From Octopus vulgaris (taxonomy: Eukaryota), in assembly GCA_951406725.2 (NCBI GenBank), contig OX597820.1, positions 42,780,001 to 42,844,000 on the forward strand: a stretch of DNA of 64,000 nucleotides, written 5' to 3'. The number at the start of each line of letters is the position of its first letter. Position 1 is the first letter of the stretch. This document shows positions 20,426-23,222 of this stretch, piece by piece. The notes under the pieces are model-generated. The model was not told the origin of the DNA. It made no database searches and saw only the letters and a list, made by a program, of their open reading frames with translations. The position numbers were made by a program, and so were the translations under genes.

Positions 20426-20769
20426 TATATATATATATATATATATATATATATATATATATATATATATATATATATATATATATATACATAATGAAGG
20501 TCAAATTAATTAATTTGGAATAATTATCAATTACCAAGTAGTCTTCGGCATGTAAAAGCCTCATTCGAGGAAAATTTAAGTAATACTAAGCAATAAAGGG
20601 TTTAGCAACGAATTGCCTTACCACATACCGAATTTAGAAATAGCAGTCAAAGAGTTATAGCTATTTCTTCTACTAAAAGGAGATCTCAGTAAAAACAGCA
20701 ATTGGAAGGCAGACACAAACAGGTAAGAGAGAATGAATTGACGGCAATCTATCATACAATTTTAAGTTA

Positions 20770-20870
20770 TCTACGGACGTACGTTTCGAAATCAAGTTTT
20801 TAGGAAAGCATAAGAATTAAATATCAAATAATTCTATCTTACCAAGAACTTCTTTTCTCTTCAGCGTAGA
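20770..20870 (-). ncRNA. Type I hammerhead ribozyme (array copy 1)
   Basis: UCUACG-CUGAAGA-[70 nt stem II closed by GAAA/UUUC]-GAAA-CGUACG UC^CGUAGA; perfect 6 bp stem I, GUC triplet. Confidence 0.88.
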
Positions 20871-21362
20871 ATACTATAATCATAAATGATTATATATTGA
20901 ATTTTGAGATACTAGAAGGCATCAACTCAACTCAGTATCAGAGCGAGCTAGAATCCGCAACTAGTATCACCAAATTCAATGTGTGAATGAAAAGATTGTG
21001 TCACCAGCCCCTTCCCACCCGCGTGTAGCCAAAACAAGATGCTGTGGTCATCTACTGAGATAAAATATGGTTATCCGTAATAATGAAGGGTGAAATTAAT
21101 TAATTTGGAATAATTATCAATTACACCAAGTAGTCTTCGGCATGTAAAAGCCTCATTCGAGGAAAATTTAAGTAATACTAAGCAATAAAGGGTTTAGCAA
21201 CGAATTGCCTTACCACATACCGAATTTAGAAATAGCAGTCAAAGAGTTATAGCTATTTCTTCTACTAAAAAGGAGATCTCAGTAAAAACAGCAATTGGAA
21301 GGCAGACACAAACAGGTAAGAGAGAATGAATTGACGGCAATCTATCATACAATTTTAAGTTA

Positions 21363-21463
21363 TCTACGGACGTACGTTTCGAAATCAAGTTTTTAGGAAA
21401 GCATAAGAATTAAATATCAAATAATTCTATCTTACCAAGAACTTCTTTTCTCTTCAGCGTAGA
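21363..21463 (-). ncRNA. Type I hammerhead ribozyme (array copy 2)
   Basis: Same motif as 20770-20870. Confidence 0.88.
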
Positions 21464-21956
21464 ATACTATAATCATAAATGATTATATATTGAATTTTGA
21501 GATACTAGAAGGCATCAACTCAGCTCAGTATCAGAGCGAGCTAGAATCCGCAACTAGTATCACCAAATTCAATGTGTGAATGAAAAGATTGTGTCACCAG
21601 CCCCTTCCCACCCGCGTGTAGCCAAAACAAGATGCTGTGGTCATCTACTGAGATAAAATATGGTTATCCGTAATAATGAAGGGTGAAATTAATTAATTTG
21701 GAATAATTATCAATTACACCAAGTAGTCATCGGCATGTAAAGGCCTCATTCGAGGAAAATTTAAGTAATACTAAGCAATAAAGGGTTTAGCAACGAATTG
21801 CCTTACCACATACCGAATTTAGAAATAGCAGTCAAAGAGTTATAGCTATTTCTTCTACTAAAAAGGGAGATCTCAGTAAAAACAGCAATTGGAAGGCAGA
21901 CACAAACAGGTAAGAGAGAATGAATTGACGGCAATCTATCATACAATTTTAAGTTA

Positions 21957-22057
21957 TCTACGGACGTACGTTTCGAAATCAAGTTTTTAGGAAAGCATAA
22001 GAATTAAATATCAAATAATTCTATCTTACCAAGAACTTCTTTTCTCTTCAGCGTAGA
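21957..22057 (-). ncRNA. Type I hammerhead ribozyme (array copy 3)
   Basis: Same motif as 20770-20870. Confidence 0.88.
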
Positions 22058-22240
22058 ATACTATAATCATAAATGATTATATATTGAATGGGGTGGGAAG
22101 GGGCTGGTGACACAATCTTTTCATTCACACATTGAATTTGGTGATACTAGTTGCGGATTCTAGCTCGCTCTGATACTGAGTTGAGTTGATGCCTTCTAGT
22201 ATCTCAAAATTCAATATATAATCATTTATGATTATAGTAT

Positions 22241-22341
22241 TCTACGCTGAAGTGAAAAGAAGTTCTTGGTAAGATAGAATTATTTGATATTTAATTCTTA
22301 TGCTTTCCTAAAAACTTGATTTCGAAACGTACGTCCGTAGA
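22241..22341 (+). ncRNA. Type I hammerhead ribozyme (array copy 4, core A9U substitution)
   Basis: Core reads CTGAAGT (T at 22253) instead of CTGAAGA. Confidence 0.7.
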
Positions 22342-22833
22342 TAACTTAAAATTGTATGATAGATTGCCGTCAATTCATTCTCTCTTACCTGTTTGTGTCT
22401 GCCTTCCAATTGCTGTTTTTACTGAGATCTCCTTTTTAGTAGAAGAAATAGCTATAACTCTTTGACTGCTATTTCTAAATTCGGTATGTGGTAAGGCAAT
22501 TCGTTGCTAAACCCTTTATTGCTTAGTATTACTTAAATTTTCCTCGAATGAGGCTTTTACATGCCGAAGACTACTTGGTGTAATTGATAATTATTCCAAA
22601 TTAATTAATTTCACCCTTCATTATTACGGATAACCATATTTTATCTCAGTAGATGACCACAGCATCTTGTTTTGGCTACACGCGGGTGGGAAGGGGCTGG
22701 TGACACAATCTTTTCATTCACACATTGAATTTGGTGATACTAGTTGCGGATTCTAGCTCGCTCTGATACTGAGTTGAGTTGATGCCTTCTAGTATCTCAA
22801 AATTCAATATATAATCATTTATGATTATAGTAT

Positions 22834-22934
22834 TCTACGCTGAAGAGAAAAGAAGTTCTTGGTAAGATAGAATTATTTGATATTTAATTCTTATGCTTTC
22901 CTAAAAACTTGATTTCGAAACGTACGTCCGTAGA
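22834..22934 (+). ncRNA. Type I hammerhead ribozyme (array copy 5)
   Basis: CTGAAGA 22840-22846, GAAA 22917-22920, predicted cleavage after C22928, stem I TCTACG/CGTAGA. Confidence 0.88.
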
Positions 22935-23222
22935 TAACTTAAAATTGTATGATAGATTGCCGTCAATTCATTCTCTCTTACCTGTTTGTGTCTGCCTTCC
23001 AATTGCTGTTTTTACTGAGATCTCCTTTTAGTAGAAGAAATAGCTATAACTCTTTGACTGCTATTTCTAAATTCGGTATGTGGTAAGGCAATTCGTTGCT
23101 AAACCCTTTATTGCTTAGTATATATATATACATATATATATATATATATATATATATATATATATATATATATATATATATATATATATATATATATATA
23201 TATATATATATATATATATATA

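What the first reader, a model, noticed from the sequence alone, without database searches (positions are those of the whole stretch)
20491..23121. Array of ~593 bp non-coding units, each with a complete type I hammerhead ribozyme (retrozyme-like)
Seen: near-identical units, three direct then two inverted, with no ORF, between (TA)n tracts. Each holds UCUACG-CUGAAGA-stemII-GAAA-CGUACGUC^CGUAGA, and predicted cleavage sites are 593-594 nt apart. Known: tandem type I hammerheads occur in metazoan non-LTR retrozymes and Penelope pLTRs, where multimer transcripts self-process into monomers that can circularise. Inferred: a young non-autonomous retroelement copied from a multimeric or circular RNA by a Penelope-type RT. 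The monomer seems long for the animal retrozymes I recall (a few hundred nt), so the family may be undescribed.
Basis: partly seen in the sequence, partly recalled or inferred. Interest (0 to 1): 0.9.

Follow-up and report, generated by a model that had tools for sequence, protein, structure and literature searches.

The report
Twin-armed retrozyme copied from RNA circles
A 593-base non-coding repeat carrying a predicted self-cutting (hammerhead) RNA motif sits in TA repeats at more than 150 places in this animal genome, and its two fixed ends and head-to-head arms show it is likely copied from one circular RNA by a Penelope-type reverse transcriptase, a route long proposed but not yet tested.

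Summary
The array is two head-to-head arms (2.69 and 1.74 units of 593 nt) in (TA)n, with 4 intact type I hammerheads and one A9U mutant. It is a young dispersed non-LTR retrozyme family: 245 exact ribozyme hits and 157 exact end junctions. The kind is known and the unit length is ordinary.

What the copies add: 83 of 85 arm 3' ends lie at two sites, about 194 and 289-304 nt past the cleavage site. 24 of 28 two-armed insertions use one of each site and none uses the same site twice. This is the Penelope 'tail' signature. All units of an insertion, in both arms, share one haplotype (154 variants fixed, 15 partial), including locus-private variants. This points to one monomer, most likely a circle, copied by two RTs at insertion rather than to local satellite expansion.

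Both sites lie in a ~180-nt structured module shared by diverged families of 528-601 nt (3,373 motif hits). Their hammerheads covary in stem I and at C3-G8/U3-A8.

Not shown: cleavage, the circle itself, expression, or the autonomous partner. Five PLE lineages checked lack the module.

The parts
20422..20490 (.). Left (TA)n target tract
   Evidence: TRF 20422-20493. All 32 one-armed loci and 53 of 56 outer arm ends of two-armed loci abut TA or a similar microsatellite.
20491..22089 (-). Left arm: 2.69 tandem units, 5'-truncated at unit position 467, 3' end at position 289 (distal start site, E2)
   Evidence: BLAST of the monomer.
22091..23121 (+). Right arm: 1.74 tandem units, 5'-truncated at unit position 349, 3' end at position 194 (proximal start site, E1)
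   Evidence: The exact E1-into-TA junction occurs 157 times in the genome, control 0.
23122..23222 (.). Right (TA)n target tract
   Evidence: TRF 23119-23222.
22336..22928 (+). Reference monomer between two predicted cleavage sites (593 nt), the predicted circle
   Evidence: Circular MFE -155.8 kcal/mol leaves the hammerhead fold free; z -4.0 against 25 shuffles, antisense z -4.4.
22834..22934 (+). Intact type I hammerhead: stem I UCUACG/CGUAGA, core CUGAAGA at 22840, 70-nt stem II, GAAA at 22917, palindromic CGUACG, predicted cut after C22928
   Evidence: Stem I and positions 3/8 covary in related families.
22241..22341 (+). Hammerhead with A9U change at 22253 (likely impaired), C17 at 22335
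   Evidence: sequence; variant 511T.
21957..22057 (-). Intact hammerhead, C17 at 21963
21363..21463 (-). Intact hammerhead, C17 at 21369
20770..20870 (-). Intact hammerhead, C17 at 20776
22444..22624 (+). One complete copy of the conserved ~180-nt module (unit positions ~109-289): a hairpin, a long-range helix enclosing E1 (22529), and a second hairpin closed by GGUG/CACC just before E2; likely the RT binding and start element
   Evidence: 67-87% identical in other families; 3,373 exact core-motif hits, control 0; named structure 95.7% paired over 13 copies; 72 of 95 non-family copies end at the equivalent two sites.

Best explanation
This is one insertion of a young, non-coding retrozyme family whose 593-nt unit is predicted to be cut out of tandem transcripts by its hammerhead, likely closed into a circle, and likely written back into (TA)n by a Penelope-like RT/GIY-YIG protein supplied in trans. 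Shown: dispersed copies, (TA)n target, random 5' truncation, two fixed 3' ends, one of each end in two-armed insertions, and one haplotype per insertion. Inferred steps: (1) a tandem array is transcribed and the hammerheads (perhaps as dimers, through the palindromic loop III) release monomers; (2) a host ligase closes them; (3) a PLE protein, probably a dimer, binds the structured module and nicks both strands of (TA)n; (4) one nick primes reverse transcription at E1 and the other at E2 on the same circle, and each RT runs round for a random distance (up to ~6 units seen); (5) the two cDNA ends join head-to-head, often through 1-12 nt of overlap, or one arm is lost. My odds: retrozyme 0.93; PLE-type enzyme 0.9; both arms from one RNA haplotype 0.85; monomeric circle as template 0.72.
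For: Ends: 53 of 85 TA-abutting arm ends at unit positions 184-203, 30 at 268-304, 2 elsewhere; the best TA-like run of the unit (ending at 478) was never used; 5' ends are scattered. Two-armed insertions: 24 of 28 pair E1 with E2, 4 pair E1 with another point, none repeats a site (chance 6e-8 for 24 of 24 at 50:50). In 20 more loci picked by E1, 9 of 11 second arms end at E2 and none at E1. Autonomous PLEs of this genome also have two ends against (TA)n, and a purified PLE protein extends both nicked strands from two internal RNA sites that bound the genomic tail (PMC11167929). One template: at sites covered by 3 or more units, 154 variants are in all units, 84 in one, 15 in some (7 of these at one locus); locus-private variants are fixed across units at 9 of 50 loci and across both arms at 5 of 25, including this one; opposite arms differ by 0.30% within and 1.45% between insertions (0 of 20,000 resamplings). 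0 of 47 unit-specific variants recur in the equivalent unit of the other arm. Unit junctions at the cut site are intact in 161 of 163, with no indel. Ribozyme: across 43 hammerheads upstream of the module, positions 3/8 are U-A 25, C-G 16, U-G 2, C-A 0, and stem I changes on both strands.
Against: No cleavage, circle or strand-specific RNA was observed. No autonomous PLE sharing the module was found in five lineages. L034 has heterogeneous units and arms; L056 has one derived base in the equivalent unit of both arms but not in the next unit, as a dimer or multimer template would give. The within-family test for selection on the hammerhead is not significant (p = 0.10). For the anole PLE, unprocessed RNA was the main template in vitro, hammerhead cleavage was dispensable, and both strands used the same start sites. 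Only 1 of 9 Xenopus retrozyme dimers cleaved in vitro. The 60 loci were picked by similarity, the first 40 biased to long arrays; assembly polishing could homogenise units and was not checked against long reads.
Confidence: 0.7

Rival explanations
1. Same element and enzyme, but the template is an uncut linear multimer transcript of a genomic array, with internal initiation at E1 and E2; the hammerhead is a passenger or acts rarely.
For: Unprocessed RNA was the dominant substrate for the anole PLE in vitro. L056 variant in equivalent units of both arms, heterogeneous L034, and a variant at a 5-unit interval in L072. Very young source arrays would also give homogeneous daughters.
Against: It does not explain how new mutations become fixed across all units: lineage variants shared between loci are array-wide (154 fixed against 15 partial), and 0 of 47 unit-specific variants match across arms. 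Hammerheads covary across families.
Confidence: 0.14
2. The template passes through a monomer, but not as a circle read directly: either the RT jumps end-to-end on the linear cleaved monomer, or a circle is first copied RNA-to-RNA into linear multimers.
For: Either route gives one haplotype per insertion. Both strands of the unit fold equally well. RNA-to-RNA replication is reported for a plant retrozyme (PMC9695139, abstract start only).
Against: Template jumps usually leave indels (recalled from R2 work), yet 161 of 163 junctions are exact and 5' truncations do not pile up at the cut site. No hammerhead is seen on the antisense strand.
Confidence: 0.1
3. Monomers (solo pLTR-like pieces of a PLE) insert first, and arrays then grow and homogenise locally by unequal crossover or gene conversion, as satellites do (model discussed in Li et al. 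2026).
For: Local duplications exist: two adjacent units share variants in L069, and L308/L309 look like a duplicated segment. Xenopus retrozymes resemble pLTRs.
Against: Arrays end at fixed RT-type sites, start at random points and sit between two target tracts; inverted arms share private variants at under 1% divergence; unequal crossover cannot build or homogenise inverted arms. None of 20 E1-anchored copies runs upstream into an ORF.
Confidence: 0.05
4. The inverted array is an assembly or fold-back read artefact.
For: 1,031-nt arms that are 100% complementary. Long reads were not examined.
Against: The flanks differ, the arms stop at different unit positions, the same layout recurs at 28 of 60 loci, and 20 public runs from 10 studies hold the unit.
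Confidence: 0.01

Closest known systems
Metazoan non-LTR retrozymes (Cervera & de la Pena 2020, PMC7229834; Li et al. 2026, bioRxiv 10.64898/2026.07.22.740005)
   Same: Non-coding tandem units, one type I hammerhead per unit, low GC, dimers to multimers, unit length inside the 51-972 bp range; proposed circle template and PLE partner.
   Different: The text read describes no fixed RT start sites, tail, inverted arms or conserved module. Li et al. sampled 31 vertebrates, 3 insects and 1 coral; Cervera tested a coral, a mussel and a salamander. Stem II here is 70 nt rather than ~4 bp. Cleavage and circles are shown there, not here.
EN+ Penelope-like elements and their pLTRs (Neptune, Hydra, Naiad, Poseidon; Craig et al. 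2021, PMC8557442; Arkhipova et al. 2013, PMC3846280)
   Same: 5' truncation, partial tandems, adjacent inverted 5'-truncated copy (head-to-head), a tail on one end only, (TA)n target, hammerhead with short palindromic helix III upstream of the 3' end.
   Different: No ORF; the unit repeats on its own; the tail is ~95-110 nt instead of 30-40; no sequence match to the ends of five PLE lineages in this genome.
Anole Poseidon PAc in vitro (Frangieh et al. 2024, PMC11167929)
   Same: Two internal RT start sites downstream of the hammerhead that define the tail; both target strands nicked and extended; AT-rich target; predicted dimer.
   Different: There both strands used the same sites and uncut RNA was the template. 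Here the two sites are split between the two strands in 24 of 24 classifiable insertions, and multimer copies point to a circle.
L1 twin priming (recalled, no call)
   Same: Two priming events on one RNA give an inverted 5' part joined with microhomology.
   Different: In L1 the second primer lands at variable internal sites and stops the first cDNA. Here the second site is fixed, lies 3' of the first within the unit, and both arms can exceed a unit.

Membership tests
Non-LTR retrozyme | Tandem repeat with a complete type I hammerhead in at least two consecutive units | tested here: met
   Three consecutive intact motifs in the left arm; criterion as.
Non-LTR retrozyme | Non-coding, low GC, unit of ~50-1000 nt | tested here: met
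   Frames of at most 66 aa; GC ~33-35%; 593 nt against 51-972.
Non-LTR retrozyme | Dispersed copies as monomers to multimers (mobile) | tested here: met
   245 exact hammerhead hits and 157 end junctions on many contigs; arms of 0.1-5.9 units.
Non-LTR retrozyme | Self-cleavage of the RNA | not testable with these tools
   Covariation only; within-family selection test p = 0.10.
Non-LTR retrozyme | Expressed as linear and circular monomer RNA | tested here: inconclusive
   No holder is on record as RNA, and contigs cannot tell a circle from tandem DNA.
Penelope-like element insertion signature | 5' truncation with fixed 3' end; optional tail on one end; inverted 5'-truncated copy; microsatellite target | tested here: met
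   against the description.
Autonomous PLE or its pLTR | RT + GIY-YIG ORF contiguous with the repeat | tested here: not met
   0 of 20 E1-anchored loci. ORF pieces near module-bearing loci are opposite in strand, kilobases away or cut off by (TA)n.
Derivative of a specific PLE clade | Sequence homology to that clade's pLTR | tested here: inconclusive
   No match to the ends of three Neptune-like, one Hydra-like and one old Naiad-like lineage; the genome search scores only top candidates, so other lineages may exist.
LTR retrozyme (plant type) | Type III hammerhead in LTRs, PBS/PPT, 4-bp TSD | tested here: not met
   Type I topology, no LTRs, tandem units (definition).

The most novel reading that the evidence does not exclude
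A long-lived superfamily of circular RNA parasites (thousands of copies, 528-601 nt, ~70% identical) carries a compact, structured RT-loading element that makes a Penelope dimer start one strand at E1 and the other at E2 on a single RNA circle. These arrays would be a genomic fossil record of twin, asymmetric rolling-circle reverse transcription, explaining the PLE tail, tandems and head-to-head inversions in one mechanism, and the ~180-nt module would be a portable signal for writing circular RNA into (TA)n.
Probability: 0.45. Interest if true: 0.8.

Novelty: new member of a known kind. Interest (0 to 1): 0.55.

Why it matters
That animal retrozymes are copied from circles by PLE enzymes has been a hypothesis since 2014-2020, and a 2026 preprint still discusses local satellite-style growth. 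How PLEs make their tails, tandems and inverted copies is also open. This family is young enough to read the mechanism from its copies: two fixed start sites split between the two arms, and one haplotype per insertion. It names a ~180-nt RNA element and two exact start sites that can be tested with purified PLE protein on circular versus linear RNA. The family itself is ordinary for its kind, and Rfam models miss its hammerhead.

Tried and rejected
Rfam: no hammerhead model hits the array. Fold energy of the hammerhead region alone is not unusual (z -0.96), and the circular fold does not tell the strand. RNAalifold on the first alignment did not recover the long-range helix; I named it by hand, so leans towards it (pairs with two-sided change: 4, reached by 51 of 500 shuffles).

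Expression: no RNA holder listed. Four runs only guessed to be RNA cover all 30 bins and show the end-to-start joint, but tandem DNA gives the same, so this is not used as evidence.

Partner search: GIY-YIG family, Hydra-like endonuclease, two RT fragments, full elements, 20 module variants with ~4 kb upstream, upstream DNA of two sister families and 20 E1-anchored loci. No ORF is contiguous with the module. Three module motifs were absent from the Craig et al. supplement as held, which may not include consensus DNA.

Microhomology as the cause of the fixed ends: rejected, since the ends have only 3-4 nt of TA-like match and the best run is unused. A telomere-repeat-like reading of the ACCCU motif before each end was considered and left as untested speculation. 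A TSD cannot be read in (TA)n. Earlier-finding look-ups returned nothing. Dfam and Repbase could not be searched.

Full report
Observation. The region 20491-23121 is two arms of a 593-nt unit joined at their 5' ends: 22089->20491 on the - strand (2.69 units) and 22091->23121 on + (1.74 units), 98-100% identical, between (TA)n tracts. A generic type I hammerhead scan of the 64-kb window finds 4 motifs, all in the array, and none in 30 shuffled windows. A fifth copy has A9 changed to U. Predicted cut sites are 593, 594 and 593 nt apart. No frame inside the array exceeds 66 aa. Rfam has no hammerhead hit here. Stem II is 70 nt long; helix III is two pairs closed by a palindrome, the form described as working in dimers (PMC4209133, passages). 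The host genome has 2.8 Gb in 227 contigs; from its SINE-like repeats and microsatellites it looks like an octopus-type cephalopod (recalled, not tested).

Family. The monomer matches 192 pieces among the 40 scored of 2,006 candidates, nearly all 97-100% identical. An exact 21-mer over the cut site occurs 245 times and one exact end junction 157 times; both controls gave 0. Subfamilies of about 601 and 596 nt exist. I analysed 60 loci: the window, the 39 other loci readable in the list (biased to long arrays), and 20.

Ends. 5' ends are scattered over the unit. Of 85 arm 3' ends that abut a TA tract, 53 lie at unit positions 184-203 (E1; 35 at 194), 30 at 268-304 (E2) and 2 elsewhere; BLAST ends are good to a few bases. 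The best TA-like run in the unit, ending at 478, was never used. Of 28 two-armed loci, all head-to-head, 24 pair E1 with E2, 4 pair E1 with another point, and none repeats a site. The 32 one-armed loci end at E1 (25), E2 (6) or elsewhere (1). 19 of 28 inner junctions overlap by 1-12 nt. In 20 further loci chosen by E1, 9 of 11 second arms end at E2 and none at E1.

This is the PLE signature: 5' truncation, an adjacent inverted truncated copy, a tail on one end and a (TA)n target (Craig et al., passages; Arkhipova et al., passages). Frangieh et al. (main text and methods) showed that the tail lies between two internal RT start sites and that both target strands are extended. Autonomous PLEs in this genome behave alike: of 30 Hydra-like copies, 8 end ~740 and 20 end ~840-905 nt after the ORF, 2 being internally deleted; 5 of 28 GIY-YIG loci carry a ~40-nt extension (clade labels recalled from motifs).

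Template. Substitutions per kb were 3.7 within an arm, 5.8 between arms of one insertion and 15.5 between loci (44 loci). At sites covered by 3 or more units (34 loci, one scrambled unit dropped), 154 variants were in all units, 84 in one and 15 in some, 7 of those at L034. Variants private to a locus were fixed across units at 9 of 50 loci and across both arms at 5 of 25; in this window all five units carry a base that no other of the 60 loci has. Arm haplotypes differ by 0.30% within (n = 19) and 1.45% between insertions (n = 437; 601-nt loci left out; 0 of 20,000 resamplings). None of 47 minority variants recurred in the equivalent unit of the other arm (20 loci, one homopolymer excluded). 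Junctions at the cut site are intact in 161 of 163, the two others being substitutions. Each insertion thus behaves as many copies of one monomer, which a circle explains most simply. Against this: L034 is heterogeneous, L056 has one variant placed as a multimer would place it, very young source arrays would also give uniform daughters, and assembly polishing was not checked.

Superfamily and module. Unit positions ~100-290 are 67-87% identical to other repeats, and the core motif has 3,373 exact hits. Of 95 distinct copies outside this family, 41 end at the E1-equivalent, 31 at the E2-equivalent, 8 continue into a next unit (periods 528-578), 11 have no TA within 330 nt and 4 end elsewhere. 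43 have a hammerhead 110-135 nt upstream; positions 3/8 read U-A 25, C-G 16, U-G 2 and C-A 0, and stem I changes on both strands between families. These copies are related, so independent events are few. A hand-named six-helix structure pairs in 95.7% of cells over 13 copies against 37-56% when slid, with 4 pairs changed on both sides; RNAalifold recovered only part of it. Within the family, inherited variants avoid the hammerhead (1 site against 9 singletons), but not significantly (p = 0.10).

Partner. The genome holds young PLEs with a 781-aa RT + GIY-YIG frame, a ~1200-aa frame with clean pLTRs, a 574-aa partial type, a Hydra-like type and an old Naiad-like type. None shares the module, and no module-bearing copy examined runs into an ORF. 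The enzyme class is therefore inferred from the insertion signature, and the clade is open.

Expression. No holder is on record as RNA, and the contigs laid cannot separate a circle from tandem DNA. Expression and circularity are untested.

Known versus new. This meets the sequence criteria for a non-LTR retrozyme. The circle-plus-PLE model was proposed by Cervera & de la Pena (passages and Discussion; supplement unreadable, and it may list cephalopod examples). Li et al. (parts 1-3 of 5; supplements closed) give lengths of 51-972 bp, link Xenopus retrozymes to pLTRs, and discuss local amplification. Six paper searches listed no description of cephalopod retrozymes or of fixed paired start sites in retrozyme arrays; subscription papers, Dfam and Repbase were not searchable.

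Verdict. A new member of a known kind, with copy-level evidence that bears on an open mechanism. Interest 0.55.

Noticed in passing
window 20025-20421 and 58090-58776: TA-flanked near-perfect palindrome (124-nt perfect arms, 22-nt loop) just left of the array, with a 76% related inverted pair elsewhere in the window; MITE-like and unrelated to the retrozyme unit. It draws the spurious Rfam miRNA and weak HH9 hits.
   Followed up: partly
window 45223-45957: Four tandem copies of a 184-nt SINE-like unit (93% matches), with no hammerhead.
   Followed up: no
window 38736-39318: 296-nt tandem duplication, 99% identical, no hammerhead.
   Followed up: partly
L048 (1396, 5207) and L060 (4595): A different hammerhead family with a long stem II and a 10-nt palindromic loop III, lacking the module; possibly another retrozyme lineage.
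   Followed up: no
L259-L264: Very young, abundant Neptune-like PLE with a ~1200-aa frame in partial tandems and a minimal hammerhead ~100 nt before its 3' end; many copies give the same score.
   Followed up: partly
L120-L123: Young PLE with a 781-aa RT + GIY-YIG frame preceded by a separate upstream frame (up to 479 aa, no Pfam hit), and a hammerhead-like end with U3-A8.
   Followed up: partly
G000:C10:27049570-27051725: Array of a sister family with ~265-nt spacing, apparently an internally deleted unit re-amplified to several copies (listing only).
   Followed up: no
L034: Largest two-armed insertion (1.9 + 3.5 kb), with heterogeneous units and arms; candidate for template switching between different RNA molecules.
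   Followed up: partly
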